The notes below the pieces were generated by a model, which was not told where the DNA came from, did no database searches, and saw nothing but the letters and a program-made list of their open reading frames with translations. Source: Chrysomallon squamiferum (lineage: Eukaryota; Animalia; Mollusca). From it: DNA of 64,000 bases. The stretch is taken from contig CM022665.1 of assembly GCA_012295275.1 (NCBI GenBank), positions 5,084,001 to 5,148,000 on the forward strand, read 5' to 3'. This document shows positions 5,987-45,315 of this stretch, in pieces. Both the position numbers and the translations under genes were made by a program. The first letter of the stretch is position 1. Every line of letters starts with the position of its first letter.

Positions 5987-7705
5987 TCACTGTTTGTGAT
6001 ATATGGAATTATAAGTGAATGTCCAAATGGTAAAATGTTCTAGGTCAGTTGTCTGTTTGCATGGCATTGTCATGACTGTTTGTCTGTAACCAGTGGTAGC
6101 ATCTGGATCACTGACATGCATTATACAGTTCTGGGGTTCAAACCACTCAATTTGCCCCTTCTCATTAGCATTCCATATCTGTTTTAAATCATCTCCCTGG
6201 CAAACCTCCAGTACCAAGTACCTATTTTTTACTGATATACATTTATCTTTCATTTTTATCTTACCTTCTTTTGTAATAGCCATATTGACTGCTTTGTAGC
6301 CCCAACAATCTACCATTTCAAAAGGACTAGGTATTAATCTGTCTGAGATTCCCACACACAATGAACTTGCCTTGTTTTTCATTTTGCCAAATTTTATTGC
6401 AGTTTCGGGAAATATGTCTAGTTCAGGAAATATGTTATCAATATACCATGAAAAATCTTTGCAGTTAAGTTTCTGTTGGACACGTCTAATTTTAGAATAA
6501 TCTCCTGCACCATCACTGGGAGAGACACGTCCTTCGTGGACAGCATAAAAAAACTTTTTATACTGTCCAAGCCACAAATCAGCAATCCGTTTTTCGTTGT
6601 ATAGCAAATCTTCATATGGCATATGAAACGGGTGTCCATTTTTAAAAACATGACCTACCCTTGAACATTCTAAAATTTTCATTTTCCCGCCACACATCCA
6701 AACTCTAAGGGAAAGTTCTACGTCTTCTGCACCCCATGTTTTCATATCAACATCCAATCCTCCAATATCTAAAAAGTATTTTTTATCAACTGCAAAGCAA
6801 CAGCCTACAATGGCTGGTGTAGGTATGGGATCGGAAGGAGTTCGCTTCAACACCTCTTTTGGTGGAATCGGAGCGAATGTGAATCCTAAAGTCCACTGAA
6901 ATTCACCGCGCATATTCTCCATATATTTATTATACTGAAATGTCTGCGGGTCTATGATGTCGATAGCTGGCTGAACAACAGTTCTTATATCTTTGTAAAT
7001 TTCCCATACTATCGGTTCAAGCCATCCAGCATTTACCTCTGTGTGTGAATCTAAATACACCAAGACTTGACCGTTAGCTTTTTCAGCACCCAGAACACGT
7101 GACTTCATCGTCCCAAGACGTTCACTCGACCTAATGATTTTAACCTTAACAAATTTTCGTAAATACTTTTCAAGTGGTGTTTTCAGAAATTCCAAGGTGC
7201 TCATATCGTCAATAACCATAATTTCATGCAAAAGATTAGGAGGACTTCGCAACAGCACGCTATGAATAGTCCGTAGAAGAGTGGACCATGGCTCGTTATG
7301 CATTGGAATCACAACTGAAACTGTTGGTAATGCTGAAGATGTAATTTTAATTTTCCTGCATTCATACGGTCTAGTATCTGGAATAATTCGGTTCAGTGAA
7401 ATACTATGTGAGCGTGATACGTTAATAAAAAACCTTTCAAATTTAGTATCTTTTTCGATAGGAAAGTCAGCCATTGCTTGATCTGTATCCATTATATTTA
7501 TAGATATATTGGTGGTTTTCGTTAAAACTGCTTCCAAAGGCGAGTCCTGGAATCCGTTGAATACATTTCGAACAGATAATGAATAATTTAAAATCAGTGC
7601 ATAGAAACAAATAACTAGTAATATCAGAGTAACAATCCATTTCAGACGAATATTTCTGATCTGACCCATTTTTTGTCCATATATGTTATCGGATTCACTA
7701 ACCAT
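5987..7705 (-). CDS. Polypeptide N-acetylgalactosaminyltransferase (GT27/GALNT family), single coding exon, ~572 aa
   Basis: N-terminal TM segment (WIVTLILLVICFYALIL); GT-A motifs SLNRIIPDTR, SVVIPMHNEPWSTLLRTIHSVL, DxH (YLDSHTE), WGAEDVELSLRVWMCGG and CSRVGHVF; C-terminal ricin-B lectin. The ORF-track start at 7732 is TTG; the first ATG is at 7705 (alternative 7669). A splice acceptor with a poly-T tract at 7742-7780 implies a 5'UTR intron. The orthologue number cannot be assigned. Confidence 0.93.
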   Translation of the reverse strand: MVSESDNIYGQKMGQIRNIRLKWIVTLILLVICFYALILNYSLSVRNVFNGFQDSPLEAVLTKTTNISINIMDTDQAMADFPIEKDTKFERFFINVSRSHSISLNRIIPDTRPYECRKIKITSSALPTVSVVIPMHNEPWSTLLRTIHSVLLRSPPNLLHEIMVIDDMSTLEFLKTPLEKYLRKFVKVKIIRSSERLGTMKSRVLGAEKANGQVLVYLDSHTEVNAGWLEPIVWEIYKDIRTVVQPAIDIIDPQTFQYNKYMENMRGEFQWTLGFTFAPIPPKEVLKRTPSDPIPTPAIVGCCFAVDKKYFLDIGGLDVDMKTWGAEDVELSLRVWMCGGKMKILECSRVGHVFKNGHPFHMPYEDLLYNEKRIADLWLGQYKKFFYAVHEGRVSPSDGAGDYSKIRRVQQKLNCKDFSWYIDNIFPELDIFPETAIKFGKMKNKASSLCVGISDRLIPSPFEMVDCWGYKAVNMAITKEGKIKMKDKCISVKNRYLVLEVCQGDDLKQIWNANEKGQIEWFEPQNCIMHVSDPDATTGYRQTVMTMPCKQTTDLEHFTIWTFTYNSIYHKQ

Positions 7706-8953: not shown

Positions 8954-9073
8954 AATAAGAGAGAATAAAAACATTAAAATCACACCAATATTTTTTAGCT
9001 TTTATATGAAAAAAAGTTGTGGCTGAACTAAATTCGCTGGTATTTTTCTTAAATCTATTGCGAAACGGTGAGT
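8200..9073. promoter_or_regulatory. Putative bidirectional promoter between GALNT (-) and the senataxin-like gene (+), including a probable non-coding first exon ending at donor G|GTGAGT (9067/9068)
   Basis: Local CpG enrichment, YY1-type AAGATGGCG (~8657) and CRE-like TTGACGTAA (~8801). A strong donor at 9068 pairs with the acceptor TCTTCAG at 9734. TSS positions are inferred only. Confidence 0.5.
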
Positions 9074-9400
9074 TGTTTCAATCATTTGGCAACATAAACA
9101 CTGAATATCTCATCGATAAAAAACTAATATATATATATATATATAACAAAATGAAGCCTTGATGAGTTCAAGAGCCATACATGATACAATAATTTAAAGC
9201 ATGTTGCTGACATTCATTAATTTTAATTAATTGCACTAATTTGTACAAAACTTTATCCACTCAGGTTATTAGTATGAGATCAAAATCATGTATATTCATT
9301 TTGGATTGTCAAATCAACTAAAGTAACTATGGTTCGGCATTTTTAATTTTTTTTTTTTTAAATTTGGATGCTGGCATTTTAGCTGTTCTTTCAGACTAGG

Positions 9401-9554
9401 CAGTGGTTCTTAAACTGTTTCACTGGTATTCTCCCTCAAGTTTTTATTGTAAAATTTCATTTACTAAATTTCCTAATGTTTTCTGTAATTTTCTTATTAT
9501 TCCTCTCGTTTAATTCACCCTTGTGTGAACAATTTACCACACTAAGAAGCACTG
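9401..9554. mobile_element. Degenerate hAT-Charlie-like MITE
   Basis: Ends CAGTGGTTCTTAAAC / ACTAAGAAGCACTG, with GACTA-containing flanks on both sides. Confidence 0.4.
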
Positions 9555-9786
9555 GACTAAAGTACATCGTTCTCATCCATTTCATGAAGTTTTTAAGCAG
9601 TTCCAAAGTGACCCCAAAACTGAACCAGATGTGAATATAATCAGTTATTGAACTGTCTTTAAAGTTTAGTCATACCTTTTATTTTCACGGTTTTAAATAG
9701 TGATCATTTTGTTTTTCTTTTGACTCATCTTCAGATCATCTGAAAACAAAATCTAAACAACAGATCATGATCCTGGTGCTGGGTGC

Positions 9787-12700
9787 ATGGCGTGTTCAGT
9801 TCTGTTACACAGATGTAATAATGAATTTATTAACCAACCATTATTACCAGACTTGAACTCTAGTATTGACCTACAAGTAACAAGAAACAGAAAAAACATG
9901 AACCCGGAGCAAAGGGAAAGCATTGAGGTGTTAAGTGATGTCTCAACTGATGATGATGTTAGGATCATTGATTTAGATGATTCGTCTGAAGATAAGGGTG
10001 GTTCACATGAGAACATAGCTGAGTCTGAGGACAATGCTTGGTTGCCTAAAGAACAGCAGGTCCAAAGTACATCAGTTTTTCATTCACAAAAACCTATGAC
10101 TTGTGAAGAAAACTTTAAAAGCAGCAACTCTTCAGTGCAAAATCAAAGACAAGACTATGTCAGTTTGACAAGTGATGAAAAAAGGTCAGAAAGTCAAACT
10201 CTAAAAAAGGTTTCTTCAAAATCCAGAAGTAAATCTTCAGTTTCTGTGTTTGAGCGAATGTCTCAACGATCAGGTGATGGAAATGAAAGAAATAAGTCTG
10301 AGGTCTCAGAATTAATGTTTACAGAGGATTATAGTTTTTCATATGAAAATCTACCCACACTGAAATGGCCAAGGCCAAGGCAAAAAAATAAACAAAAAGA
10401 TTGTAAAGAGCACCCATCAATGTCTGTTGTATTGGAAACTTCTGATAGTGACATCCCTTTAGATTATATTCTGAACATTATCGATGACCATATTGAAAAT
10501 CTTACACCTACAAAATCCAGTAAAATGAGTCGAAAAAAAAAGTCTGTTGAAAAAGGAGTTGGAAATAAAGCCCAACAATCATCAAAACTAACTAAAAAAA
10601 ATCAGAATAGTAGTTTGAAAAAAAAAAAGATAACAAGAAAGAATGATACAAAGAAAAATACAGTATCTTATTTTGATGATTTTGAAATTAAAAGTACAAA
10701 TTCTAGCGATGAATCATCAGAATCATTCAGTGAAGAATCATTTAAGGGACCATATCATAAATTTGACAACGTGAAACTGTCCAAAAGCATGTCTTATGTT
10801 TCAGAAACTAAAATTGGGTCAAACCTAGGCACAGAGTCAAGCAGTTCAAGTGTAAATGAAAATTGTTCAATTACTGGGACGTCTTTAAAGACTCCAAAGG
10901 ATATGCATGCATTAAAAAACAAAAGCCAATCATTTTGCAGTGATACGTCAAAAACAAAGAATTTCTTAGATTCTGAACGTGACTACAGAGAATGTAGCAG
11001 TGATGATGACACTCAAGAGCCATGTGATTTTGTTTACAATAAAACATTGCCAGTGAATACAGCTGTAACAAACACTGATGCAGTATGTGACTTTGATGAT
11101 GATACACAAGAGCCATTATTTGATGGATCATTTACAGGTTTAAATGAAAAAAATAAAGTAAGAGATCCTGCTGAACAAAATAACCTCCATGTATATGGTG
11201 ATAAAAACAAGAAAACAGATGAATGCATAAATAGAAATGGATCATCACCTGTACACATTAAAACAGAACCTGTAGATGTAGATGTTGGTGTATATGGATT
11301 CACCCAGGAAGATGACATTATTTACTGCTGTGGCAGCTCTGATGAAGAAGAGCTGCACAGTTTATCGCAGAAAACCTATAAAGCTACCACTCAGTCAAAT
11401 TCTGATTCTGATGATGCTGTTTTATACAAGTATTTTGATAGCAGAGATGATGTGAGGCACAAAACAGTAATAGATGAAAATGTGTATAATGAAGATACAC
11501 AAGCAGATTTGGCCAACAGTGTCAGGACTGAAGGATATACAGGTGGAAATGATTCTAGTATGTACTCAGCATCAACCCAATGTAATGAACCTTGCAGTGG
11601 ATTTAATAACAGTAAGATATTTGATAAAGTATTATCACCTAGCAACCGTCTGTACAGATTATCAGATCTTAAAAAAAGAAAACAGCCCACAATGGATGAT
11701 GTTTCTAACAATAATTTTGACAATACACGGTGCATTTCACCAGCAGGACAAATAGAGGCAGCAAGTTCAGGTGGATCCAAATCGCATTTAACTACTGATC
11801 CATATGAGTTGTCTACTCGTGCTGAAAAAAAAAGTTTTCAAGTAATAAAACAACAACCCAGAAATAAACTATCTGAGAAAAAGTTGGCTGTTGAAGATCC
11901 CTATCTATGTGCTACGCAGAAGGACAGTTACATACCTTCAAAAAGAAAACATGAAGACACTTATGACAATGATAACTATAATTCTTTAACACAAGTTGGT
12001 CAACCATCTGTGCTCACCCCAGACCACACCTTTTCAAAACGGCCATGCTTGGATCCTGTTCCCACAGCCACAGATAAGCATAATGAATTTACTGAAAAAA
12101 ACATTTTTGCCAATGATTATGATGCTGAAACTCAACTGTTGATCACAAAAGATGTATCTACTGGAGAGAGAGATTTATACAATGCATGTACTCAGGTAAG
12201 TCCTGATGAAAGTTCTGATGATGAAATTTACAATGACATGACTTTGGTGTATGATGAAACTAGGCATGAATTAAAGATGTCTAATTTCCAAGACCATCTT
12301 GAAAATGACTTTTATAATGCAAGCACACAAATTGATAACAGTTGCTGTTTGTCTGAAGTTAATACTGACATCATGCGAGCTGAAGAGAATGAGGTGAAGG
12401 AGACCAAACAAAATTTTCACATCAGTAGAAATGAAGATGTTGAAATGCCATCAGAAGAAGATGAAGAGCTGTACAATGCAATGACCCAGTTTGATCAACA
12501 AGCCAAATCTGAGACCGAAAGCAAAGAAGAAAAGATGAATGACAGCATATCTGAAAACACAATAAAAGTGACCCGCATTGGACAAATACCAACTAAAATG
12601 GTGTTAAAAAAACAGAAATGGCATTATGAAAGCAGTGATGATCCATATACTGCAGAGACACAATGTGATGAAGGACAAGGATCTGAGACAAACATAAAAG

Positions 12701-13714
12701 AAAGAAAGCTGAATAAAATACTATCTGACAAAAATATAAAAAAGAATTGTAATGGAGAAAAAATTGCTAAAACAACACTGGACAAAAATAAATGTGATGA
12801 TGATGATGATCCGTACAGTGCTTCAACACAACCTGATCAAGGATTAATGTCCGAGGCATTCAGCAAAATAAAAGATTTGAAAATCAGTAGTACACAAGTT
12901 ACAACAACTGATATATTTGATGCTGAAACACAGATTGATAAGGTATCAGATGGACATAATTTTCCTAATCAGTATATTTATACAAACCATATTCCTGCTA
13001 ACAATGACAAAAACTCAAAACTACTTGATGATAAAAATATGGATGTCTATGATGAAACAACTGATATATTTGATGCTGAAACACAGGTTGATAAGGCATC
13101 AGATGGACATAAGTTTCATAATAAGTGTATTTATACAAACCATATTCCTGCTAACAATGACAAAAACTCAAAACTACTTAATAAAAATATGGATGTCTAT
13201 GATAAAGCAACTGAGGTTGACACTGTTGTTGACCAAGAGAACATAAATACAAATAGAGTTCCTTTGGACAGCACTGAGTTGTGTGTCAGTTTAGATAAAT
13301 CACAGGCACATTCCAGCAGAAAGCGGAAACCCTCTACAGATTTAGAAACAACTCTGAAAGAACTAAAGCAAAAACACATTCAGCAGAGAACACTGAAGGT
13401 AACAGAGCCACAAAAACTCAAGAGTAAAAAGGAAATCAGAGAAAGTGTTAAGAGTACTGCATCTTTTTCTCCCACCAGTTCTGTGAGTGACATTGTCATT
13501 GTTGATGATGATCAGTGGCTGTCAAAGGCAACTGGGACAAAACGTAGAGTAAAGGAATGTGTCAGAGTTAGAAAGAGGAAGAAGAGCAAAACTGATGATG
13601 AAGTTTCACTCACTCAGAAATTCAATGATGCAAAAAGGCAGCTCAAGAGCAGAGAAAAGGTACCTGCTGAAAAGATTCCAGCACCTGCCGTAAAACATTT
13701 AAGAAAATCTGTAG
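9787..13714 (+). CDS. Giant first coding exon of the senataxin-like gene (3928 nt), acidic/Ser-rich disordered region with TQ motif array
   Basis: 1335-aa ORF with an in-frame upstream TAA at 9754. Donor G|GTAAGT at 13714/13715 joins in phase 1 to exon 14287. Confidence 0.88.
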
Positions 13715-16237
13715 GTAAGTGTAATATTGATTGGTATACCATGTTCATTGAGAATATCAGGATATTTTTTGTACAGCAATGCTGTAAACTATGATTGCAC
13801 CATGCTTTATTTTTTAAATCCACCATAATTAGCACTTTATTATCTAAGCATTTTAATATTATTGTTCATATTAAAAATACATAATTTACATTTAATGTAC
13901 TAGATATGACAGTATTATGGCCTGAGTATTCTTCTTAGAAACATAGAACATTTAAGATATGTTCAGTGGCTGTTTTATCTTTAAAGCATATTGAATAATT
14001 TTGAATTGTTAATAGATTGTATATATTGTTTTTCACAAACTTGCCCTGGCATTTAGAATAAATCTCTTGATATATTTTGAGAGTAGTTAACTAAATAATG
14101 ACAGTTTTGTTTTAATTAGGTACATCAAACAGCCTGTATTCATCAATATTTAATTAAATAATTAGTAATGTTAAAGGTTTATGATTTCATATAGATATAT
14201 ATCATTATATATGTTTAATTTTAACATCAACATCAGTTAAAACATGCATTCCTCATTTTTGTAATAACATTTTAAAATGTGTGCAGATGTTCAGGCCAGC
14301 TGCTCAGATGTTAAGCTTCCAGATGCTGAAGAAATAATGTCAAAAGGTCTTCCATTACTTTCTGCCAATGTTCCAGTCGATAAGCTCTACAGACACAAGA
14401 ATACACTTGATGCAAACAATATGAACAATGTTGAAAGTCATACTTCAGTAAACAACAAACAGCCTGAGAGATTTGCTTCACGAACTGCCAGAATGGCACA
14501 CACTATGCTGGACAAGGGTCCAGTTCCAGTGATTACAGAGAAAAGTACGGACATTTCTGTACATGACACCACAGCTGATATAGATTTTCTGTTTGGTGAT
14601 GGTGACAGTACTGTGAATCAGTCAAAGGACAGCAGTGTTGTGGTTTCAGAAAGTTCAGCAAGTCATAAAAAGCATGAGCTTCTTTCAAATTGTAAATCAG
14701 CTGAAAAGGATTCAGTGAAAAAACAGAAGACAAATAGTTCTTATCCTTTAACTAAAGCAAATCATGACAGGAAGTATGACAGTAAATCTTCAAGGAAGGA
14801 GTCAGAAGTAAAACACAGGTCATCCAGTTCTGACAAACATAAACATTCTCATTCATCAGTAAGTGAAAAAAAACTAGTACATGTTAGAAGCTCATCAATT
14901 TCTCATACAGGAAAAACCTCATCATTTTCATCATCAGTAAAACATTCAAGCTCTGTGACTTCTGAAGTGAAACATTCATCTGCCAAGGATTCAGGACAGA
15001 GATGTAAGGATAGATCATCTTCAGTCAGTGAAACTGATACAGCCCATTGCTACGGACTATCTAAATCTGTGGCTTCTAATAGAAATGAGACGACAAACAG
15101 AAAATTTGAAAAAGAATCAGACAAGCAAGAATTACACACAAAAGAAAGCAGTGCTGCAAAAAGAACAGACAAGTGTGATTTATCAAAACAAGAAAAAAAG
15201 TCATCTTTAGCACCTAAAAGTAAAAGCCCAACTGCAAATAAACCAGTAAATGATAGCATTGTTGATAAATCTTCAAGAATTGCTGAACAAGTAAAGAGAT
15301 CAGCAGCACAGAAAAAACATGTTACTTTTGATTTGGTTAATAATATAACATCACAGTCAACGTTGTGTTCCAGACAGCCCGAAAGTAGTATGATTAACAA
15401 ACAAAATAAAAACAGTAATTCTGGATGTGTTAAAAGCCCCACTGAGGATTACATAAACAAAATGATGAAGGTAATTCCTTATTATTTATATCTGGTACCA
15501 ATTTAATCTCATTTCAAAAATTGGTACAGCATACATAACTATCAGCTTTGTGTATGTTGTTATGCATTGTTGTTTGAACATTATTTTTACATTTGTTTAT
15601 GATATTACATTTTCAAAATACTGTTTAACCACTTAGTCAGCCTGAGTAGTTAAAATAATTCAGTTTAAAACCGAGTAGCAATTGCAATGTCCAAATAAAT
15701 AGGTGATCTTGTCAGATACTTTAGAAAAGCATAGTGATTCAAAAGCATAAAATAAACTTATTTTAAATATGTGGTTGGTAAATAGGTCTGATATTTCAAA
15801 AAAGGTCAGCAGTTTGTATAGTGATTCAGATGCACCAAAAACTTATTTATATGTAAATATGTAGCTGGTAATGCTGACATTTTGTTAAAATTTAGTAGTT
15901 TGTATAGTCATCCAGCAGCATCAAAAATTTATTTGTGCATAAGTATGTTGCTGTTAAAATCTTGTTTTTTCCTTCAAATTTATTTCATAGCCTCGGCCTC
16001 CTCAACTTCAAATCTGTGATCCTCGTACACTGGCCAGACAAAGGACCATAAAACAAACACCAGGCGACAGAGGAAGACTGATAGATTTTCAGTATTTTCA
16101 GTTGCAGATACTTAACTGGAATCCAGTGTGGTTGATCGAACAAGGTTTAACTTGTCTTTATATATACTTATTAATTCATCAATTCATTCATTCATTCATT
16201 CATTTATTCTGTTTTGTTTTGTTTTGTTTTGTTTTGT

Positions 16238-16272
<35 letters not shown>

Positions 16273-19200
16273 TTTTAATCTTTATTATCTAAGACATTCA
16301 TTACTATATTGCAACTTTTGTTTTATTACCAGAGCATGTTTTTTGTTTTTGTTTTTTTTTGTTGTTGTTTTTTAATTAATTTTTTTCATCATTGTCATTT
16401 TTATCTGTTGTATACATGCAGGACAATACTGGTTCTTGAATTTTGTAATTTTTAAATCCAGTTCTTCAGTATTCTAGAAAAAAAAGGATTAAAGCAATGA
16501 AAGACGTTTAAAAGTTGTAGTTCCATTAATTTAATATTGTGATGGCAAAAGTAGCCATTACCATATATTCCAGATACTGTTGATGAAACTATTGATCTTT
16601 TTTGCTGGAAATGTCCACAAAATGCATTTCCAGATGTAAGAATGGTGTATTTAAAATACTGACATACTAGTCCACATCTGTCTTTCTAAAAGTACTTTAA
16701 GGTGAGCAACCACTGAAAGAACAAATTATAAAAATGTGGGGGTTTGTTTTGGTTTTTGTTTGGGGGGGGTGAATGTCAGAATTATATTTTTGAAATAATG
16801 AAAATGGTTTTATTATTGAGAAGGTAGGAATGATAATGAAAGAACATATATATATATATACCTTTACAATCATATCTTTTCTTCTTCTTCCCCTGCATTG
16901 AGTTTGATCATATTTTAGAATATAGCACTTTCACACTCTCTTGTTCATCACATTTTAACTGTTGGGGTGTAATTAAGCATTTATTCTTTAAGAAGCATTA
17001 TGCTTGTAGAAAGTGTAAATAAAAACTGAATTGATGCATTCTTAAACTGGTGTGGAGAAACTTCATCACTGACCTTAGCACAATCAAACATGACAGACAG
17101 TGATGATGGTAACGATTCTTAAAATGTTTAGAAAATAATATGAATCTAGGAAAAAAAAGTCACAACCATAAACAGAAAATTAAAGCTTCTGTCACTCAGA
17201 GTTTTTGTGAATGTTCTTTATTTTCAATGTTGGTGGTTTAAACAGATTTTCCAGTTGATTCCATAGAGAAATTCTGCCACAGTCTTGTATGCTGTCATGC
17301 CACATTCTTTTAATTCAGTAATCTGCAAACTCATACATTTTGATATATAAACATTTTTTGTTCCTATACTAAACTGTGATTTTTTTTCTGTGACTATTTT
17401 TCATGTGACCTTTTTTCCCAGTCACAAATAACATATTAAAATTAAAATTAAAATTAAAATTATTGTTGTTGTTGTTATCATTACTATCATCATCATCATT
17501 ATTATTGTCATTATAATTATTATAATTTTTGTTTTTCTTTTTTATTTATTTATATTTTCTATTTATTATTTAAATCTGTTTTCAGAAAAACCAGAACTTG
17601 TAGATCACCCAGTGCCTATCCTGAATGCCAATGACAAGGTTTACCCATTACTTGAGGAATACACAAGTATTGAGGAATACCAAAGGATTATGACCAATCT
17701 GCTGCTGATAGAAACATGGGCTATTGTGAGGGTCTTCTTAATAAATAATGTATCATTTTGCAACCATAACAGAGACAATAATGTATCTGGAAATAGGCTC
17801 AACACATACACACCACACAGACACAGACACAACACACACACAACACACACATACACATTGAGACAAAAACAGAGAGACAGAAACTGTATAAACATAAAAC
17901 CAATTAAGTCATAAAATTAATTGAAAGAATGCAAATTCATATTATTCACATTAATAACATAACTTAGTTATTTCAGTGTTTTGTCCATGTATGGTTATTA
18001 AAACAAAACCAAAATTCTAATATATTTATACAATGCAACTGGAAAGGACATTATTGTGGGTTAAAAATAAATGAACTGTCAGTTACTCCAGAAAGTTGTA
18101 TGTCATATGTTACTAAAACAAAGAAGAATGAATGAATGAAAACATTTAACATGCTAATCAGAGCAAGCTATTAACAGGTACATAATAAAGATTAAAATTG
18201 CAATATATTTATAAAACAACTGTAGCACAATTCATGTTGTTTAAGACAGACTAATTATTTTCTAATAATGTGCCAGCCAGTGTGACCATTGCAAAGTCTT
18301 TGGCCATGTTGTAACAAATTGACATGATCCACTGCACAGAAACAGTCAACCACTGTCTCATTTTTATTGTTAAAAGGGAGGTCTTCACATTAATTTCGTG
18401 TCACACTTTAGTCTGTTCACTGTCATTTGCATTAATTGTTAATTTCATGATTTACAGAGTGGTATGTGTATGTGTGCTTTTCTGAATCCAGTTACTTGAA
18501 ACTAATTTCTGTTTTAGAAATATAAAAAATGGCTTTCCTGAATAATGATTGTAAGATGTAAAATGTTTTCTTTTTTTACTTCAATATTTAATTAGCTAGC
18601 TGATAAACACACTGTCTAGAAATTAAAATGTAATTCATACATGACACACGTATGCTTTTTGTATTTTATGTTTCTGTCAGTGTGTGTGTAATTTATTTAT
18701 TTGTTTTTTAATTATTCAGTCTTGTTTATCTCAATGAGAAATGAAATTTAATAATAATGAAGTGTTATTAAACATTTGCCACTAATTTTGAAATGATGAT
18801 AATATTTTAATAAAAATCCATTATTTATTGTATTATTTGTATAGATTTCCAAAGAATGGAAAGAGAAAAATTGTACATTAAAAACAGGTCAAGCCTTCTT
18901 TTCTAGAGAGGAATGCAAGGAGAGCCCTGAACTGGCTGTATACAGTTACACTGGTATGATTGTTTTCTTTTAAATTTTGGTATATCTGTTCTGGCTGGTA
19001 TTTAGTCAGATTCACAAAAGCACTTTAGGTATAACTGTTGTTGTTATTTTTATTTTTATCATCATTTTAAGCATGATCATCGTCATCATTTTTATTATTA
19101 AGACTGTGTTTAACATAAGGCAAGGCTTTTGTCATTATCATTAACAAAGATGACTGTACTGTTATTTTTAGTTCTGCTATAACAAATCCAGACACAGGAA

Positions 19201-22200
19201 AAGTGAAATTAAAAACACTGATTTTTTTATGTCTTTGTCAGACATTGTTATTATGCCTTATAAACTGAAACAGTGGTAGTTTAGACAATCAGTGTTCGAG
19301 AATACTGAATGTATTTATTTAAATGTTACTAATATGTATTTATAATTATTTTTTTAATTAATTTAAAAAAATCAAATACCTACTGACCTGTTAAGATAGT
19401 GTTAAAACTTTATATATAAAATTGCAATTTGTTTTCATTTTTTTTAATTAATGTTTCTTTTCTTTTCGTTTTCTTTTTTTCTTCTTCTTATTATTTTTTG
19501 TTTGTTTTCTAGGTCTTTTGACAAAAGAGAAGTTCTTGCGTCGCCATTACCCAATGGACGGAGATATTATTAAAATGGAAGTTTGGGTTAAATGGCTAGT
19601 AAACTGTAAGATAAAATCAGAATCCAGCCACAAACCATATATTCAGATGGGTTACATTAAGCAGTGTTATGTTAAGCCTATAAAAGATCTGAAAGCATTT
19701 TTGAAGGCTCATCCTAAACTGAGTGAGTAGTTCATTTTGTCATTTTAATAATGTAGTCTTCGCAGGAAAACATGTTCACATTAACATTGCAGTTTTATTT
19801 GCCAAAATATTATTTCATAGCAGCCTTGAATAATAACTCTGAAGTATAAAGAATTTTGTTTGTTCACTGACATACTCTGCTGCAGGTATGATTTAAACAG
19901 CAAGTTGATCCAGATTTTCCTGCATAGGCCACATTTTCCTTTATCATTACAAAAATAATAATAATAAGAATAATAATAATAATAGACCCTAACCATGTCA
20001 GATCATCCAGTGGTTGAAACATCATTCCCTCTGAGTTTGCTGAAAATTGGTATCTGAAAATTGATGCTGAAAAAGCTGATATTTCCATTTTTAGCATGAT
20101 CAGCCCAGTGGTTTCTGATGTATGGCCTTTTCAGTTCTGGAAATTTTAACAGTAATGTATGTGTCTGTCTGCCTACATTCAAATGGCCATAGCTCAGTAA
20201 CCAGTTGATCAGTCTTGATGAAATGGGTATTTCTAGAAAGGTGATTTAACACAAGTCAGATGGGTGAGGTTTAATTTTTTCCATTAATTGGGGTGATTTT
20301 AACACAGAATGACCCAATAATCTACTACTAATCACAGTAACAGTAAAAGCAGAACTAATAATAAGAGTATACAGTTATCTACATAAATGTTCTTTTCTTC
20401 TCAGGATCTGATTCAACTGGTGAAATGTATGAACTTAACATGAAAATTGGCTTTCGGCTTAAAAAGTATGCACTACAGTCAGAAAAACCAATGACATATA
20501 CGGTAAAAGATGTTTTGATTAATTAGCAAATTAGTTAATTCAATGTTCCTCTGATCATAAGTCAACCACTACCATCTAAATGTGTTGTTTTTATTTTTTA
20601 TTTATTTATTTATTTTTTCATTCAGATAATAATAAATTATTGAAATAAAATAACAAGTTTACAGTGATTCATAAAGGTTAATACCATCTGGTCATTTCAT
20701 ATAAAGAAATCAATTTTTTTTTTTTTTTAATTTTAAAAAAAGTTCTTAAAAACCCTGATACGGTTTAGTAAATAATTGCATATTTTTTTTTTCAACTGAA
20801 ATATTCCTTTGAAAACAAAGGATTAGAATATTCCATTGTTATAATTATCTTTCTGGGGTTTTTAAAATTTTATTATCATATTTTTAAAATGCTGTGTTGA
20901 ACCTCTGTTAAAAAAATATTTATAATAATTTAAAAAAAAAAAAAAAAAAAAATCCCTTGGTTATTTTTATGCATGTAAAACTGGAATGATGAGTTACTGT
21001 TGGGATGTGAAATGTAAGAAAAGCAAATAATCAACAAAGAAAAAAAAAAATTAAAAAGTAGGAAAAACAAATGCATATAATAATGAAAATACATGTCTCT
21101 TTTACAAATTTGTGTCTTCAGGTACTCTGCTCTATTACATCAGAAAAGAGAAAATTTTTGGCCTTGGCATCACTACCAAGAAGTCCTTTGAGAAGTCATA
21201 TTCTTGCACCATCTGACAAGGATGTTTTCTTTCATAAAGTTCCTACACATGTGAATCTGTCTCAAAAAGTACTACAGACTAAAGTGCAATTTTAAAAAAT
21301 CCTATTAATTATAATTTAATTTCCACTGTAGATAAGATAACGTATTCCTGTTTTTTTCCCCATTTTAAAATGTAATCATTATTTCATTATTTTAAGCAAT
21401 AAGTTAAAAAATTGTTTATTATTATTATTTTATTTAAATCTTAAAATGTAATGATTAATTCATTATTTAAGAGGATTTGTTTTATTTTTTTTAGAATTGT
21501 AACAAGCAAATTTTATTTAAATTATATTTTTTTATGTATAATCTTACAATTTCATTTATTTTTATATTTTTTCATTTTATTTTTAAACAGATTAAACAAT
21601 GATAGACCTATCCATATCATAAATTTTATTATGATTTTTCTTTTTTCATTATTACACATAATTTAATACACCAGGCAATGGTATCACGAGAAAGTATAAC
21701 TTCTCTTTTTCTGTTACAGAGTCATTTCAACAGTTCTCAGATCAAAGCAATAGAAGCATTCACTTGTTCAATCAAACAGCCATCAGACAAACCTAAGATA
21801 TGCATACTGCAAGGTCCACCTGGAACAGGCAAGACAGACACCATCATTGGTTTGATAAGTCGCATTGTAAAGGTATGTGTGTTTTTCTTTTTCTTTCTTT
21901 TTTTTAAAACCAAAGTCTATCAAATAACATACAGGATTGCCATTAGTAAAAATTTGCATTGTGATGTAGAAGAATACAGTGAAGAATAAGTTTATACAGT
22001 TATTCTGGATATTCCTGATCTCTTTGCATTATCAAACTGTATAAAATCATTTATATTTAAGATTACTATGAATGGCAGTTTGTATATAAGATGTGACTGA
22101 TACAGGAGTGTATGGTTATTCAGAAAATTCATCAGCTTGTGTTATGAAAACTTGGCTCTTTGGATGCTTAGGTTTTCCTTAGACCATCACCAGCTCTGGA

Positions 22201-25200
22201 CACATTACTTTCAGTTTAGTGATTATATATATTGTCTGAAATTTTCAGGAATTACACATATTTCCTGTAACACACACACACACACACACACTGCATGAAT
22301 ACACAAATACACATTCACACACATACACCTTGTGTTATGAAAACTTTTGAAAATGAAATCCACCACCACCATTCCATGAGATACTCTTACTGAATGATAG
22401 CAAGTGATTGTTTTCCCAAGTATTTTCTTCCACAGATTAAAAAAGCACGTCTATGATCTTTGATGAACCGATCAAACAGAAATAGCCCATTTGGCACTTT
22501 AAGGAGTATTCATAATGCTGTGATCTTACAAATGTGAAGTATAAAGCTTAATTCATTTCTTTGTAGGAGACCGGTGGGAAAGTGTGTCTGGTGACTCCTT
22601 CTAATGCTGCAGCAGATGAGCTCATGAGACGACTGATCAACAGAAACAGAACAATGCAAAATGGAGGTACACAAATTTCACTTTGCACATTAACTCTTCT
22701 TCTGTTACATTAAGAAAATACCCAAGACAAGAAAAACTAAGAACAAGGCTGTGGAAAAGTAGTGTCCACAGGAACTTTACTGTTAGCATTTTTGCAGCTT
22801 TCATTTGTGAATATACTGAAAACGAAATCTGAATACAATTCAGGGTCAAAAAGAAAAAAAACAAGAAAAGTACTTGCCAAATTAAAAAATCTGTGTCACT
22901 CTTTAAGATCTTACTAGTTTCCTATGGCTGTTGGCTCCACTTCTTGATATTTTTAAGATCAACCCATATTATTGATTACCACTGCATCAGTAAGTAATCT
23001 ATTTGAAGAATTTGCTAAATTTGTTATAGCAGTAAGCATTTTCTAAAAACACAGAATATTTTGTAATATTTAGATACTAACTTATTTTACAGTAACATTT
23101 GTTAACATTTGTTAAGTGTATTCATATGCAGACTGGGTTATACATTTCACAAAATATTTACTTCAGTTATAGTACACCTTTCTCCACCATTCTATTAGGA
23201 TATCATCAAAACAATGGCATTGTCTCTAGCAATTGAATTTATGTGAATTTTGGCATTTTGAATTATGTAACAAGTTGCATTGTAGTTTCCTTTAAACTGT
23301 AGTATTTCAGTGAGTTCAAATTTTAGGTGAAAGATGTTAATTACAATATACAATTTTACCTCTTTTTTTTCTTTTTTTTTTTTTTTTTTTAAGGTTTGAT
23401 TTAACATTTTTAGTGATTGATTAAAAAAAAAAAAACAGTTAAATTACATTGCTTCATAGGGTAAGATAATAAGACAAATAAAATTCAGATTACATTACTG
23501 TGAAATGAAACCTAAAGCCTCAACAATGTGTAGTGCTTATATTGCAGCTTATTATAGCAAGTGTTAAATATTTACAGACAATGAGCATCATCTCAGTCTT
23601 GTTCGCATTGGAAGCAAAGATAGCATTCAATCAGATGTGAAACCATACTTCTTGGAGGAGAAGATTTCTAAATGTATAAAGCATGGTGAGATTTAAACTT
23701 GACATACACATTTCATTTCAATTGCATTTTATATATATATATATATGATATATAACATATATACCAAACATGTACTAAATATGTACTACATATCAAATAT
23801 ATATATCACACAAAGAAACAACTTCTGTTTTGATATAATGAGGTAACATTAGAATTGATATTTTTATCATTTCCAAAGTATTTTATATATAAAATGTATA
23901 TCAAATATATAAACACAAATGGATGGGATGTGTGGTGAATGGTATAGTATTAAGAAGAGACACAACTGCTTTGCTTGATTAATGTTTCTTGCAACTCCTA
24001 TTGAGTATCATGCAGTTGTTTTCCAAATTTGAGAAGCATTTCAAACTTAAATGATTAACCTCTCATGAATTACATAAAAACAAGATACTTTATTTTGCCA
24101 ATTTTGTTGTGTTTAAACCTTAACTGTTTGGAATAATGCAACTCATTCCAATAGTTCCTGCCATTTTTGTTAACACTGGTCTGGTACTTAAGGAATAATT
24201 ATTTATAAATAATAATTTATTGGCTGTGATCATGTTTCATTTATATATGATGTAAACAAGTATCCTGCATTGTTTGAATGTACGTGGCCACATAAAGTTT
24301 AACCAAATACTAACTTACGGCTGGGAAAAATGTGCTCCCATAGGCTGATAAAATCAGCTGTGAAGGAGAAAATTATTTGCTGCCATGTTGTGAAGTTTAG
24401 TTTTGAGGTCTGTCATGTCATGTATAACAGCAGACAAAAAATGTTTTAATTGAAATCTTTCTGTGTTGTATTATGTTACAGACACCATAATCTGGTTATT
24501 TTCATTGTTGTTGTTTCTCATTAAGTAATTTACTTTTGTTCAGAGCAGAGAAGGCTGTATCAATTGATGAAACCAGAGGGTGTTCGTGACCATGAAAAAC
24601 GACTCAGAGACAGGATTGAAGAATGCAGAAAAAAACGTTACAAATTACTTGAACAGCACAGGAAAACTGAGGTTTGTCAACCTTGTTACATAAATTACCT
24701 GACTGCATTCTAAGAAACTTTAGCAAGTTTTGTGTCTATGTGTAATTGATGCTGGAAGTAAGAAAAATCTCACTAGACATTGACATATTTTAAAACTCTA
24801 AAAAATTCCTTGGGGAAATTATTGAATCACTTACTTAAAAAGCTGTTCCTCATCTTTATTTATTTAATTTTTAATTTTTTTTTTTTTTTTAATATTTAGT
24901 TGCAGATGGAAATGAAACTTTTTGCAAATGTGACTTAATTCTGAAACAAGTATTTATTTTTTCAAGATCATTTTCTATATTGCAGGCAGAGAGATGTTTA
25001 CAAGAACTCTGTAAGCTGCGGAAAGAACTGGCATTATTTGAAGATCAGAGTGAAATCAACCCAAATCAGGTAATGTCACTGTAAAAAACATACTATTTTG
25101 TATTCTGTTGTATTATAGTCTTTATTTCTTCATCTTGTTTTATTTTGGGTTTTTTTTTTTACTACAAAATCCATTATGTCTACTTATTTTAACTTACGGG

Positions 25201-26287
25201 GAGGTCCATAATTAACTACAGAGTCGGTCATTAATTTAACAAACATCAGAAGAAACTATAATGTATTCCAAACACAAATGGAAGCTGAAAAGTCATTGTA
25301 CAGGCAGAAAATCCTTAATCGAAAATGATTGGGACTGGGAGGGTTTCACATTTTGGAATATAAGGAAATAGCCTGAAAATAGGATCTAAATCTAAATACA
25401 AATTCCATATATATTTCATGTACAGCTTATATAAGTAGCTGGAGGATTCTATATAAAATACTTTTAATAATTTTGTGCATAAAATAAAGCTTGTGTATGC
25501 AACACAATCTGAAAATTATAAGATATTAAAATTTCTGCTGCTCAGAAAAAGTTTTTGGATTTCAGAGCTTTTTGCATTTCAGAATTTCAGTTAAGGGATT
25601 CAACTGATTTATTCTTTATCAGTCATGACTGGGCCACTTCAGACTGTGATGTTCTAATGAATTCGTTGTATGGTTAATTATGGGCCACACAATATATCCC
25701 AAATGATCATTTTCTGACAACTTAGTCAGCACTGCCTAAAAAAAAATACCTTAAACAAAAATAAAAACAAATATGCCATGGTATTCATGCTTAGGTATGT
25801 GCATAACCCATGCTTTGAACTAGAAGTCAAATATATTTTCAGGATGTTTTGTGAAATGTCACTCTTGTCATTTTGATTCCATTTTTTTTTTTTTTTTCAG
25901 TTGCCCAGTCTGACTATGGAAAAGGAGATTGAGATTAGTAGAAATATTATATTCAAGGCCAATGTTGTGTGTGGGACACTGAACAGTTTTGGCAGTCAGA
26001 AAATTTTAAAGCTTTTCAGGGAAAGAAACAAAGCACACACGAGTTTCCAGTGCATAATAATAGATGAGGTATGCTTTAATATCAGATTAATGTTAGTTTA
26101 CTTTTGTAACTTTTGTTTTAATAACGTAGTCACAAGAATGACTAGCAGCAAAGGCAGATGGAATGAAATCCAGTATGAACTGATAATTTAAAATTATAAA
26201 ACATTTACTGTTATATTTTATAGTATTGTATAAATATGATAGATGTTTTGACATTATTATTATGTTGTTGTTGGTAGTGTTGTGGGG

Positions 26288-26318
<31 letters not shown>

Positions 26319-28972
26319 CTTAGATGCTGTTGAATGTTTAATCCCAGGGAACATTTTTATTTCTGGCAGTCAAGACAGTGAAATGTTTAATTTCAAATGT
26401 TCTGATGTTTTTGTTTTTGTTCTTTTAAACAACTAATCAGGAAGATGGTCATAACAATTATGATTTTCTTTCCAAGCTTAGAAAACAACTGCTTATTTGT
26501 TTAATTCTGATGTAGTCCCAGGGTCACAAATGTAGATGTTTTATTATTATCATTATCATCATTATTATTTATTTATTTAGTTAGTTAGTTAGTTAGTTAG
26601 TTATTTTATTTCTGATTTAATAGTCAAATCACTTTCACTCAGATAATTAAGGCGATGAGACTATACAGCCAGTAAAAGTTACTTAATACTTCCAGGCAAC
26701 CCAGGCAACTGAATTAGACTGTCTAATTCCACTGCAGTATGGAACAAGCAAACTAGTACTTGTAGGAGATCCTGAACAGTTGCCACCAACTGTCATTTCC
26801 CAGGTGAAATCACTGAAATCTTACAAACATGTACAAAAATATATACTGTTTAACTATATTGTCAGTAAACCTGTTTTTTTTACGTTTTTGTGTGTACATA
26901 AACATGGACCCCTGAAACAAAATTTGAGGAAACTTTTAAAATAAAATTAGCTGGTGTGAAAAATGCTCCTAATATCAGTAGTTTGTTTATTTTGATTTAT
27001 GACAGTATTCTCATAAATGACTCTGAATAAAAGTAAATGCTTAAATACTGCTGTCAGGTCAAAACTGTTATGTGAAATGACACTTCTATCTATGTCAGTT
27101 ACTTGTAAATAATGATCATTCCAGCACATTGTTTGAAAATGTTTGACCTTATTTCCCCAAGAAACAATCGTCTGTAATAACAGAACACAACATCTACTGA
27201 GTTAAGAAAAACTAGTTTTTATGGAAAAAGACAAATTTTAGGGATACAAAGCACTAGTTTGGTTGGCAGGGTGCTTACGCTGGTGCCTGTGAATATAAGC
27301 AATACAATAAATACAGTAAAATAATTAGTAATGTATTAAATAAACAGTTCACACACTTCCACATTGTCTCATTCATAAGCCTTTTAGCAATAGCCTTGCT
27401 GTTTACAGAAATAGTGTCTTGTTGTTGGGCAAAAAAGCCTTTACATACTGTTTCCACATCTTCAGGTCTTATATGGTCAAGACCTGGTTATTAATTAGTG
27501 TTACAGGTTTATCGGTTGTTATTTCATTTGGCACACATATTATTTGTTAATTTTTAAAGATAAAAACTTTAAATTACTAGAAGTATTAGCAGTAATTCTT
27601 TACTTAATGATGTTTCCTAACTTGTATTCACAGAAAGCTGAAAAGATGAAATTTGGCCAATCGTTGTTTGAAAGATTTCACAGCTACTTCATTCATGCAG
27701 ATGAGAATGCCGTCATGTTTCTGGATACTCAGTACAGGATGGATCCTGAAATTTTACACTTTCCAAACCAATATGTGTACCAAGGACTGCTCAGAACAGA
27801 CCAGTAAATGATAGTTTAAAATCATGCTTTTTATCTGGTTAAGATTTGTTTGGCTTGTTTAAAGTGTACCTTTGGTGATTTCAAGAAATTATCTAATTAT
27901 ATTCTCCATATTTTCAAGTTATATGATTTTTTTTTTTTTTTTTTTGTCTGTTGCTGTCCAATATTAATTAATAATGATATACAACAACAAAAGAAAAAAA
28001 TAATTAAAACTATTCGGGCACCCATTTTTATGTAATTAAGGATGATTTGCTGTAAAGAAACTTAGTATGTTCAGAGAAAATACAGCTGTTGGTCCACCAT
28101 ATAGGTTCACATTATGATTCCAGTTGTGAAGGAGTAAAAAAAGGTGGCATTCAAATTTATATTATTATTTTATTGTCACACTGTGTTACAAACAATAATG
28201 GATTATGCAAAACAGTAAAATAATCACTTGGAAATATAGAAATATTTTATAAGGCCATTACATCATACCACCACAGGTACACTTTAACACAATTAATTTT
28301 AATATTTACTTTGTGTGTGCCTATGTAAATGAGATTATATCTCATAAAATATTCAGGATGCTAGACATGTTTAATACTGAACACTTTTTACTTTGTTTTT
28401 TTCACTTTTTTTCACTTTTTTTCTAATTTTTTATCTCTGCTAAAGCTACAGGCAAGATAAATTTGTAACTGTGTATATTCTAGCTTGATAAATTGAAAAA
28501 TCAAAAATAACAGGAAATAATTCTAGATGATGAAAATACACTGAAATCAACATTTTACCTTTTTTGTGTCTACATTTTCTTAAATAAAGTTTTAAATCTT
28601 TTTCAGAAAAGGACAAGATCAAAGATATGCCTTTTCTGAACTGTGTCTATGAGTTTCATTTTTTGTTTTAATAACTAGTTTAAAATGTTTGAATTGCACA
28701 GTGAAAGGCTAAAATGTCAGCCTGTATATATCCCAACACAAATGTTTCATTCTATTACTATTCTTTATTAGTAGCAAATAATATTTTTCAATGACAGTTA
28801 AAACAGTAACTTGGAAACTGTATCAAAATTAAAATATAAAACATCTCAAACTAAAATTTCAGGTCAGTGATTGAGATGACTCAACACTTTCCTTTATGTC
28901 CATACCTTGTCTTTGACATGAAACTTGGCCAGGAAGAATGTTCTCAATATTCAGGGTAAGTATTATTGTTGC

Positions 28973-44400: not shown

Positions 44401-45315
44401 TGTATTACATGAAAATAAGTTTGTTAACATTAAATTAAATTTCTTAATTTGTTGGTATTTTTATAATTCAAAGAATTGTCAAATGAGTTAAGATTTAAAT
44501 AGTTTCTAAAATCACTAAAAATAAAAAAAATAATTCTACATTGGTGAATTTTACAACTATAACTGTACAAAATGTTGAAACCACCATTGTTGTAGTTTTA
44601 GCGTTCAGCAAAATAGCTTTTATGTTCATACAAGATAATGTTACCAGATTATTGTAATACTTTAGCCATCCTAATTTTCTTCATCTGCTGTTGACATACA
44701 AAATATATAGGATTTTTATTCTAGCTATTTCTATATGTACTTTGTCTTGAACTAACTCATGCAGTAATTCTAAAAAGTATACAGTATATTAATCTTGGTC
44801 CATATTCAGTTTAATTCTTGCTCTTAAACTGCATTTTAATCAAATGTTTGATTAAATATGTTGTTACAAACTATATTCAAATAATTTTACTACATCAGAC
44901 CAAAATTAGAAGTGGAGCCAGCATCTGTTACAAGTAACACACGGTTCATTGTCACACTGGATGGAGTTGACCCTGACCAGTATGATGAAAATGGACAAGA
45001 GGATCTGTTGTCAGATATTCGTAGAACTGAACACATCCAGGAAGTGTTGCCACAGGCAGGACAAAAAGTATCTCCACCAAAGGTTAAACCTTTCTCCATT
45101 AGCCTACAAGATTCAGACGGTGAGTTCTTATAATTACTTTATTTTTTAAATGGATACTCTGTACTTTTTTATCGTTTTGTTTACACTTGAATTATGTGAG
45201 AAATACAATTACATTTGTTTCATGATATTATGTAGACTGTTCAGAGGTTTTTCTGGAATAATTTTTATTTTTATTTTATTTTTTTATTTTTTAATCTTTT
45301 TGGTGTATAGTTATT

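What the first reader, a model, noticed from the sequence alone, without database searches (positions are those of the whole stretch)
10995..13220. Senataxin-like helicase carries an array of 14 [YF]-x-x-x-T-Q motifs: candidate phospho-dependent FHA-docking scaffold fused to an R-loop helicase
Seen: 14 of the 18 TQ dipeptides I count in the giant exon have Y/F exactly at -4. They are FDDDTQ, YKATTQ, YNEDTQ, YSASTQ x2, YLCATQ, YNSLTQ, YDAETQ, YNACTQ, YNASTQ, YNAMTQ, YTAETQ and FDAETQ x2. There are also degenerate copies YELSTR, YNDMTL, YDETTD and YDKATE. Most have acidic residues upstream and eight have Asp at +3, giving a consensus near D-x-[YF]-x-A-x-T-Q-x-D. The spacers are unrelated and of irregular length, which points to motif-level selection and not simple DNA repetition. 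Known: S/T-Q clusters are ATM/ATR targets; pT-x-x-D is an FHA ligand class (Rad53 FHA1); XRCC1 (DPYAGSTDE) and XRCC4 (YDESTDE) use Tyr at -4 with pThr to bind PNKP/aprataxin/APLF FHA domains; MDC1 uses TQ repeats as an FHA platform. Inference: DDPYSASTQ and DDPYTAETQ look like XRCC1-type ligands switched from CK2 (TD) to ATM/ATR (TQ) control. The protein could be an MDC1-like multivalent scaffold joined to a senataxin motor, recruiting end-processing enzymes. I know of no such array described for SETX/Sen1.
Basis: partly seen in the sequence, partly recalled or inferred. Interest (0 to 1): 0.85.

Follow-up and report, generated by a model that had tools for sequence, protein, structure and literature searches.

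The report
Mollusc senataxin carries MDC1-like threonine array
The mollusc version of the RNA-DNA helicase senataxin has no detectable copy of the usual N-terminal domain and carries a string of up to 20 threonine-only motifs, like those of the insect DNA-damage scaffold MDC1, that likely act as phosphorylation-switched docking sites, while arthropod senataxins instead carry a domain predicted to read such sites.

Summary
In detail: 14 of 18 TQ dipeptides in the giant exon have Y/F at -4 (shuffle mean 0.27, maximum 5 in 20,000). RNA contigs splice the exon onward, and their lengths fit a ~2,517-aa senataxin with intact helicase motifs. All 23 mollusc senataxins counted carry the array (2-20 copies; consensus D-D-x-[YF]-x-A-x-T-Q-[VI]-D); 91 non-mollusc homologues have 0-2 matches. 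Threonine is strict (105 of 105), whereas a neighbouring conserved S/T-Q site swaps freely (12 T, 11 S). A blind motif-profile search of 1.84 billion proteins returned mollusc senataxin pieces, eight insect MDC1-type proteins and ten unassigned proteins. Protostome senataxins lack the SEN1_N domain; arthropod ones carry an RNF8-like FHA instead. Best reading: an ATM/ATR phospho-threonine array read by an FHA domain, resembling MDC1's TQ cluster (0.5; about 0.65 for any FHA reader). The proposed PNKP/aprataxin/APLF reader fits poorly (acidic +2 in 6 of 246 sites). LC8 binding is a weaker rival. New variant of a known kind; interest 0.62.

The parts
9038..9067 (+). 3' part of an upstream non-coding exon (its 5' end not determined), donor GT at 9068
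   Evidence: 29-letter loose end of RNA contigs in runs X1 and X2 matches this stretch
9735..13714 (+). Giant exon; in-frame TAA 9754-9756, first in-frame ATG 9787; encodes ~1,309 aa of predicted disordered sequence; no SEN1_N or FHA match
11092..13086 (+). Array of 14 [YF]-x-x-x-T-Q motifs, first bases at 11092, 11377, 11485, 11563, 11902, 11977, 12118, 12178, 12313, 12472, 12646, 12814, 12916, 13069 (18 nt each)
11257..11346 (+). Conserved block IKTEP (SUMO-consensus-like, label recalled) followed by [YF]-[ST]-Q-E-D-D-hydrophobic-acidic (S/T-Q site beside a SIM-like stretch, label recalled); internal control because S and T alternate here
   Evidence: 23 hits in the 121 sequences scanned, 12 T and 11 S
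12901..13203 (+). 153-bp tandem duplication (85% identical) that yields the two FDAETQ copies; RNA and DNA contigs break here
14287..15470 (+). Second coding exon, Ser/Lys/His-rich, predicted disordered, no TQ
   Evidence: joints shown
15991..21268 (+). Exons 15991-16144, 17586-17725, 18845-18953, 19513-19722, 20405-20502, 21122-21268: linker and pre-helicase region
   Evidence: first acceptor shown; the rest modelled by GT-AG spliced alignment to Gigantopelta P0001
21720..32049 (+). Senataxin SF1 helicase exons 21720-21872 (Walker A GPPGTGKT), 22567-22666, 23578-23685, 24544-24671, 24986-25069, 25901-26068 (Walker B IIDE), 26696-26803, 27634-27803, 28863-28955, 29420-29563, 30310-30417, 31561-31648, 31918-32049 (stop TAG 32047-32049)
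   Evidence: Pfam AAA_11/AAA_12 on single exons; stop-free model; last exon read to its stop

Best explanation
The giant exon encodes a predicted disordered arm of the mollusc senataxin that carries a conserved, threonine-only array of D-D-x-[YF]-x-A-x-T-Q-[VI]-D motifs, which ATM/ATR would likely phosphorylate after DNA damage so that an FHA-domain partner would dock on many sites at once, as on the TQ cluster of MDC1. Shown here: the motif, its excess over chance, its conservation across molluscs, its strict Thr and aromatic positions, the same upstream signature in insect MDC1 orthologues, no SEN1_N match in protostome senataxins, and an RNF8-like FHA in arthropod senataxins. It would need a pocket for the aromatic at -4 and accept Asp at +3, so it is probably neither a canonical RNF8/Pellino FHA (F/Y at +3) nor a canonical PNK-class FHA (acidic +1/+2).
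For: (1) Thr in 105 of 105 [YF]xxx?Q[VI]D sites although Ser is twice as common in the same regions (6,798 vs 3,177); aromatic at -4 in 105 of 109; Gln at +1 in 105 of 115. FHA domains are described as pThr-specific (PMC3351161 passages; PMC11884936 text). (2) Internal control: a separate conserved [YF]-[ST]-Q site in the same arm uses T 12 times and S 11 times, so strict Thr is not just a kinase preference. (3) Array in 23 of 23 mollusc sequences counted, 2-20 copies; 21 of the 22 non-window ones exceed all 500 shuffles, Patella (2 copies) is reached by 4 of 500. (4) Profile search of 1.84e9 proteins: 41 hits, of which 23 are mollusc senataxins or probable pieces, 8 are FHA/tandem-BRCT MDC1-type proteins (one named MDC1-like in Onthophagus, others from Chrysoperla, Anoplophora, Euwallacea, Arctopsyche) and 10 are unassigned. 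Insect MDC1 consensus D-D-[IL]-[YF]-x-A-[PAE]-T-Q-x-[LVI], 73 sites in 6 proteins. (5) The four human MDC1 TQXF sites have A, P, A, E at -1 (PMC11884936 Table 1); A/P/E occur at -1 in 133 of 246 mollusc sites. (6) An FHA -4 subsite exists in PNK and Dun1 (PMC2655680). (7) Eight senataxin homologues, forming the arthropod clade wherever placed on the tree, have an N-terminal FHA; the six aligned keep the GR, SRxH and NG residues; best solved match RNF8 FHA, E 2e-18 against 3e-14 for the next. (8) Senataxin localisation to breaks is reported to depend on ATM/DNA-PKcs, with direct modification stated as open (PMC12180482 passages).
Against: No phosphorylation or binding data. The +3 residue, a main FHA specificity position (PMC3351161), differs between mollusc senataxin (Asp 148 of 246, F/Y only 10) and insect MDC1 (Leu/Val/Ile about 79%), so the two arrays may have different readers, or the shared upstream half may reflect something other than an FHA. 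T-Q-[VI]-D also fits the LC8 anchor and +2 rule (209 and 168 of 246 sites). The annelid Owenia senataxin has neither array nor FHA nor SEN1_N, so neither module is required in all protostomes. Copy number falls to 2-3 in Patella. With motifs masked, the window arm shows no similarity to the insect MDC1 proteins, so common origin is not shown. Ten of the 41 profile hits could not be assigned. The profile was built from the motif itself, so it could only find like motifs.
Confidence: 0.5

Rival explanations
1. One reading: the motifs are XRCC1/XRCC4-type ligands for the PNKP/aprataxin/APLF class of FHA, switched from CK2 to ATM/ATR control, recruiting end-processing enzymes to the helicase. This is a sub-case of FHA docking; with the best explanation it brings any-FHA to about 0.65.
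For: Tyr at -4 packs on the PNK FHA in XRCC1 and XRCC4 complexes, and PNK contacts Asn at +3, which Asp resembles (PMC2655680 passages). Y 76%, F 24% at -4; D-P-Y occurs in several copies.
Against: The same paper places specificity in phosphorylated or acidic residues at 0, -1, +1, +2. Here +1 is Gln, +2 is V/I/L in 179 of 246 and acidic in 6 of 246, -1 is Ser in 15 and D/E in 52 of 246. Mollusc PNK-class FHA sequences were not examined.
Confidence: 0.15
2. The array binds an unidentified folded partner without phosphorylation, or phosphorylation of the Thr switches binding off; Thr is kept because it is buried in the interface.
For: Strict Thr, Gln, aromatic -4, V/I +2 and D +3 describe a long motif that could bind unmodified. 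Nothing here shows a phosphate.
Against: The same upstream signature sits in insect MDC1, whose vertebrate TQ cluster is ATM-phosphorylated and FHA-read (PMC11884936); arthropod senataxins carry an FHA.
Confidence: 0.18
3. The motifs are multivalent LC8 (DYNLL) sites, as in ASCIZ or 53BP1, that would dimerise and stiffen the senataxin arm.
For: LC8 buries the Thr before Gln, accepts mid-sized hydrophobics at +1 and favours P/D/E at +2 (PMC6607443 section 9); met by 209 and 168 of 246 mollusc sites. Weak sites can work through multivalency, and ASCIZ has 11 sites (PMC5963919 passages).
Against: TQT occurs in 2 of 246 sites. LC8 position -3 favours large, often basic residues; here it is mostly Ala (K/R 8 of 246; 1 of 14 window sites passes). 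All six rules, as I coded them from the paper's text, are met by 1 of 14 window sites, 34 of 246 mollusc sites and 2 of 73 insect MDC1 sites; 31 of 246 mollusc and 44 of 73 insect sites have an internal proline. LC8 position -5 has no reported aromatic requirement, yet it is nearly invariant here.
Confidence: 0.12
4. The array is a phosphotyrosine platform, or a neutral by-product of repeat expansion in a low-complexity exon.
For: Acidic residues precede the Tyr; some copies arose by tandem duplication (window FDAETQ pair; near-periodic repeats in Argopecten, Physella, Saccostrea).
Against: Phe replaces Tyr in 24% of sites and at homologous positions (YLCATQ/FHCATQ, YNASTQ/FNAATQ, YNAMTQ/FNALTQ), which argues against required tyrosine phosphorylation. 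The motif persists in gastropods, bivalves, cephalopods and a chiton while spacers diverge.
Confidence: 0.05

Closest known systems
MDC1 TQXF cluster (human T699/T719/T752/T765, read by RNF8 and Pellino FHA; PMC11884936) and its invertebrate and plant counterparts (TQxF in invertebrate MDC1, TQx-hydrophobic in plant BCP4; PMC11014961)
   Same: Many Thr-Gln sites in a disordered arm, variable copy number, A/P/E common at -1; insect MDC1 orthologues share the full D-D-x-[YF]-x-A-x-T-Q upstream signature.
   Different: Here the array sits on an SF1 helicase with no FHA or tandem BRCT; +2 is V/I and +3 is Asp rather than F/Y or L/V/I; no homology to MDC1 outside the motif was found. The aromatic at -4 is not mentioned in the parts of those papers I read.
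Senataxin / Sen1 (SETX) helicases
   Same: AAA_11 + AAA_12 helicase with intact Walker A and B; falls inside the senataxin tree following species relationships, sister to Gigantopelta at 64% identity; keeps a central S/T-Q plus SIM-like block shared with other protostomes.
   Different: No SEN1_N match, protein ends shortly after the helicase, and carries a 14-copy motif array absent from 91 non-mollusc homologues.
XRCC1/XRCC4 CK2 motifs read by PNKP, aprataxin and APLF FHA domains (PMC2655680)
   Same: Aromatic at -4 relative to Thr, acidic residues upstream.
   Different: No Ser at -1 and no acidic +1/+2 in most sites; TQ rather than TD; many copies instead of one or two.
ASCIZ/ATMIN multivalent LC8-binding TQT array (PMC5963919, PMC6607443)
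   Same: Many TQ motifs in a disordered region with Asp two residues after Gln.
   Different: TQT almost absent (2 of 246), small residue at LC8 position -3, prolines inside many motifs, invariant aromatic.

Membership tests
Senataxin/Sen1 orthologues | Upf1-like SF1 helicase core (AAA_11 + AAA_12) with intact Walker A and B | tested here: met
Senataxin/Sen1 orthologues | Groups with named senataxins in a helicase tree | tested here: met
   protostome clade 100/99. No UPF1, IGHMBP2 or ZGRF1 outgroup was in the tree, and a second paralogue elsewhere in the genome was not excluded (no genome held)
Senataxin/Sen1 orthologues | N-terminal SEN1_N domain | tested here: not met
Senataxin/Sen1 orthologues | RNA:DNA unwinding activity | not testable with these tools
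   inferred from family only
MDC1 family (protein) | N-terminal FHA and C-terminal tandem BRCT | tested here: not met
   none in the window gene or in the mollusc homologues scanned; not a member, only motif-level likeness
MDC1-type TQXF FHA ligand | Repeated Thr-Gln, Thr-strict | tested here: met
   105 of 105 Thr
MDC1-type TQXF FHA ligand | Phe/Tyr (or hydrophobic) at +3 | tested here: not met
   F/Y 10, I/L/V/M 33, Asp 148 of 246
MDC1-type TQXF FHA ligand | ATM-dependent phosphorylation and phospho-dependent FHA binding | not testable with these tools
   needs experiments
PNKP/APTX/APLF FHA ligand (XRCC1/XRCC4 type) | Tyr at -4 | tested here: met
   Y or F in 105 of 109 xxxxTQ[VI]D sites
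PNKP/APTX/APLF FHA ligand (XRCC1/XRCC4 type) | Phosphorylated or acidic residues at -1, +1, +2 | tested here: not met
   +1 Gln; +2 acidic 6 of 246; -1 Ser 15, D/E 52 of 246 (rule from PMC2655680)
LC8-binding motif | T-Q-[T or mid-sized hydrophobic] anchor with P/D/E at +2 | tested here: met
   209 and 168 of 246 sites; canonical TQT only 2
LC8-binding motif | Large residue at -3, polar at -4, no internal proline | tested here: not met
   all rules together: 1 of 14 window sites, 34 of 246 mollusc sites (my coding of PMC6607443 section 9)
LC8-binding motif | Beta-strand docking in the LC8 groove | not tested

The most novel reading that the evidence does not exclude
Protostome senataxins replaced the SEN1_N domain with opposite halves of one phospho-threonine switch: arthropods fused an RNF8-like FHA reader that docks on the [YF]xxx-pT-Q array of their MDC1, while molluscs built the ligand array into the helicase itself, making it a second MDC1-like mediator that nucleates FHA proteins at R-loops without tandem BRCT or gamma-H2AX.
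Probability: 0.25. Interest if true: 0.85.

Novelty: new variant of a known kind. Interest (0 to 1): 0.62.

Why it matters
How senataxin is brought to DNA breaks under ATM/DNA-PK control is stated as unresolved in a 2025 paper (PMC12180482). If the reading holds, two animal lineages wrote that link directly into the protein, one as an FHA reader and one as a ligand array, which gives peptide-level tests. The motif also defines an extended TQ class (aromatic at -4, with Asp or a hydrophobic at +3) backed by about 320 natural examples in molluscs and insects, for which no reader is known to me. It suggests that the N-terminal domain of senataxin can be replaced by DNA-damage signalling modules.

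Tried and rejected
No whole genome is held, so paralogues and mollusc FHA proteins could not be listed. Pfam found nothing in the two disordered exons. The first homologue search with the motif region found only Gigantopelta. The FHA-profile search was crowded by bacterial FHA proteins; among the 120 listed of 213 hits there was no RNF8 and no lophotrochozoan senataxin, which is weak evidence. ESM Atlas gave no usable hit for the array or for unassigned P0133. Whole-protein alignment of the arm was uninformative. An AU test neither rejected nor showed mollusc monophyly (p 0.175); Liolophura grouped with Owenia at 90/86. Phosphotyrosine and simple DNA-repeat readings were rejected. Earlier scan findings held nothing on this. 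Paper searches for a prior description: senataxin + FHA domain + phosphothreonine (1 paper, listing only); senataxin/FHA/Drosophila/CG7504 (7 listed); MDC1/invertebrate/TQ motifs (2 listed of 3); senataxin/ATM/recruitment (20 listed of 24); senataxin/mollusc/arthropod (25 listed of 278, none of the listed mention senataxin). None of the listings described the array or the FHA fusion, but most subscription papers are not in the library.
Full report
OBSERVATION. In 20,000 shuffles the mean was 0.27 and the maximum 5. Asp at +3 occurs in 8 of 14 and Ala at -2 in 10 of 14. One qualification: the two FDAETQ copies lie in a 153-bp tandem duplication (85% identical). The other copies share at most 62% of 60 nt (median 43%) and use mixed codons, so the array is kept at the protein level.

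GENE. RNA contigs of three runs (one study) show joints 13714>14287 and 15470>15991; a fourth run of unrecorded kind runs through the introns. Two RNA runs start the giant exon at 9735, spliced from an exon ending at 9067. An in-frame TAA at 9754-9756 makes ATG 9787 the start for this splice form. A GT-AG model guided by the Gigantopelta protein gives a stop-free product with Walker A, Walker B and the C-terminal helicase motifs, about 2,517 aa when the last exon is read to its stop. The X1 contig that begins in the giant exon has 1,767 letters left beyond 16100, exactly the summed model exons up to 27803, past both Walker motifs. The X2 leftover (533) is an exon end plus 30, and the X3 leftover (295) is an exon end plus 2. 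Mollusc database proteins carry array and helicase in one chain. The contigs break at the 153-bp duplication and are bridged there only by short overlapping pieces. Residues 1-1,730 fall on the disordered side of a charge-hydropathy boundary (a coarse test).

DISTRIBUTION. The helicase search listed the best 120 of 2,304 hits. I counted one sequence per named mollusc genus plus the window (23 sequences, 246 motifs). Left out were second species or models of the same genus (P0017, P0019, P0020, P0028), the short Lymnaea model P0025 (2 motifs) and unnamed P0006 and P0021 (6 and 10 motifs). All 23 have the array, from 2 (Patella; 4 of 500 shuffles reach it) to 20 (Mytilus, Argopecten), in gastropods, bivalves, cephalopods and a chiton. 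Of 91 non-mollusc homologues, 47 have none, 40 one and 4 two. That set is mostly vertebrate and has only one annelid, so 'mollusc-specific' is provisional. Helicase trees follow species relationships: window sister to Gigantopelta (64% identity), lophotrochozoans 97/95, FHA-bearing clade 100/99, protostomes 100/99. No non-senataxin outgroup was included.

MOTIF. Consensus D-D-[LPIV]-[YF]-x-A-[AQEP]-T-Q-[VI]-D. Freeing one position at a time: Thr 105 of 105, aromatic at -4 105 of 109, Gln 105 of 115. Of 420 TQ in these arms 246 have an aromatic at -4, against 15 of 302 SQ; other offsets are near background. A separate conserved [YF]-[ST]-Q site beside a SIM-like stretch (label recalled) uses T 12 times and S 11 times, so threonine strictness is particular to the array. 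Tyr and Phe swap at homologous sites, which argues against phosphotyrosine.

WHO ELSE HAS IT. A 30-column profile of 31 motif copies was run over 1.84 billion proteins and gave 41 hits. Eight were senataxins already in hand, 12 are clear and 3 probable mollusc senataxin pieces. Seven have FHA and/or tandem BRCT by Pfam (30 of the 33 new hits were scanned), and one more is homologous to one of these. Five of them are named insect proteins, one annotated MDC1-like. Ten remain unassigned. In six MDC1-type proteins (P0130 dropped as a near-copy of P0127) 73 of 139 TQ have an aromatic at -4, consensus D-D-[IL]-[YF]-x-A-[PAE]-T-Q-x-[LVI]. The upstream half matches the mollusc motif; +3 does not. PMC11014961 (passages and section 10, part 1 of 2) says invertebrate MDC1 has only TQxF repeats and plant BCP4 has TQx-hydrophobic motifs. 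I did not see the -4 aromatic mentioned; its source data were not opened and may show it. PMC11884936 (parts 1-2 of 7) describes ATM phosphorylation of human TQXF and binding by RNF8 and Pellino FHA domains with F/Y at +3. With motifs masked, the window arm matches only mollusc senataxins, so convergence and ancient transfer cannot be told apart.

DOMAIN SWAP. A SEN1_N profile hits 79 rows (cnidarians, amphioxus, vertebrates) but no mollusc, annelid or arthropod row and nothing in the window; it also misses the Ptychodera, Corticium and Amphiura models, which may be partial. Eight of the 120 homologues have an N-terminal FHA: Argiope, Larinioides, Araneus, Tachypleus, Gryllus and three unnamed; one search adds a scorpion and a second cricket. 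The six aligned keep GR, SRxH and NG (their role in pThr binding is recalled and partly stated in PMC3351161 passages). Their best solved match is the RNF8 FHA (E 2e-18, next 3e-14). They have 0-1 array motifs. Owenia has none of the three modules.

MECHANISM. Most likely ATM/ATR would phosphorylate the array after damage and an FHA partner would bind it multivalently, coupling the helicase to damage signalling (0.5; about 0.65 including PNK-class readers). The PNK-class reading keeps the -4 Tyr but fails the acidic -1/+1/+2 requirement of PMC2655680 (passages): acidic +2 in 6 of 246 sites. LC8 fits the anchor and +2 but fails at -3 and on prolines; all rules as I coded them from PMC6607443 (passages and section 9) are met by 1 of 14 window sites and 34 of 246 overall. 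Weak multivalent LC8 binding is not excluded, and no structure prediction of a complex was available. A phospho-independent partner remains possible (0.18). Against my reading: no phosphorylation or binding data, a +3 Asp that neither RNF8 nor Pellino prefers, and an annelid senataxin that lacks both modules.

NOVELTY. Senataxin and TQ-cluster FHA docking are both known. Their fusion, the extended motif and the arthropod FHA counterpart did not appear in the listings, which cover open-licence papers only and were not all listed in full. The arthropod FHA is already present in automatic database annotations. Other papers seen as passages only: PMC3351161, PMC5963919, PMC12057147, PMC12180482; PMC2836575 as a listing only. 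No supplements were read. Verdict: new variant of a known kind, interest 0.62.

Noticed in passing
P0029, P0038, P0039, P0042, P0043, P0046, P0048, P0103, P0169, P0193 (N-terminal ~130 aa): Arthropod senataxins (spiders, scorpion, horseshoe crab, crickets) carry an RNF8-like FHA domain where SEN1_N would be; a direct candidate reader of the pTQ arrays of insect MDC1.
   Followed up: partly
P0127, P0134, P0138, P0139, P0144, P0150: Insect MDC1-type proteins carry [YF]xxxTQ arrays (8-17 copies each) with mostly L/V/I at +3, and an N-terminal sub-class with His at -4 (I-H-E-A-P-T-Q type).
   Followed up: partly
P0132, P0133, P0136, P0145 (one family); P0131, P0137, P0141, P0149, P0152, P0153: Unnamed metagenome or transcriptome proteins with 3-9 copies of the same motif and no Pfam domain in those scanned; possibly middle exons of MDC1 from other animals, unassigned.
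   Followed up: partly
window 5987-7705, - strand: Single open frame encoding a polypeptide GalNAc-transferase-like protein (Glycos_transf_2, Glyco_transf_7C, Ricin_B_lectin), head to head with the senataxin gene about 1.3 kb from its first seen exon; looks intronless.
   Followed up: no
window about 39046-47700, + strand: Exons of a ZC3H14/Nab2-like gene (weak PWI and Nab2-type CCCH zinc-finger matches), another RNA-processing factor, directly downstream of senataxin.
   Followed up: no
window 9200-9630: An RNA contig of run X1 (depth about 10) covers part of the first intron, suggesting unspliced RNA or an alternative 5' end.
   Followed up: no
window about 20018-20146, + strand: A short coding-looking frame in an intron of the model could not be fitted in frame; the X2 contig ends 30 letters past the preceding exon, so a branch or alternative exon is possible.
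   Followed up: no
P0130: A 2,504-aa database protein joins an MDC1-type FHA/BRCT protein to MCM10 domains; probably a merged gene call.
   Followed up: no
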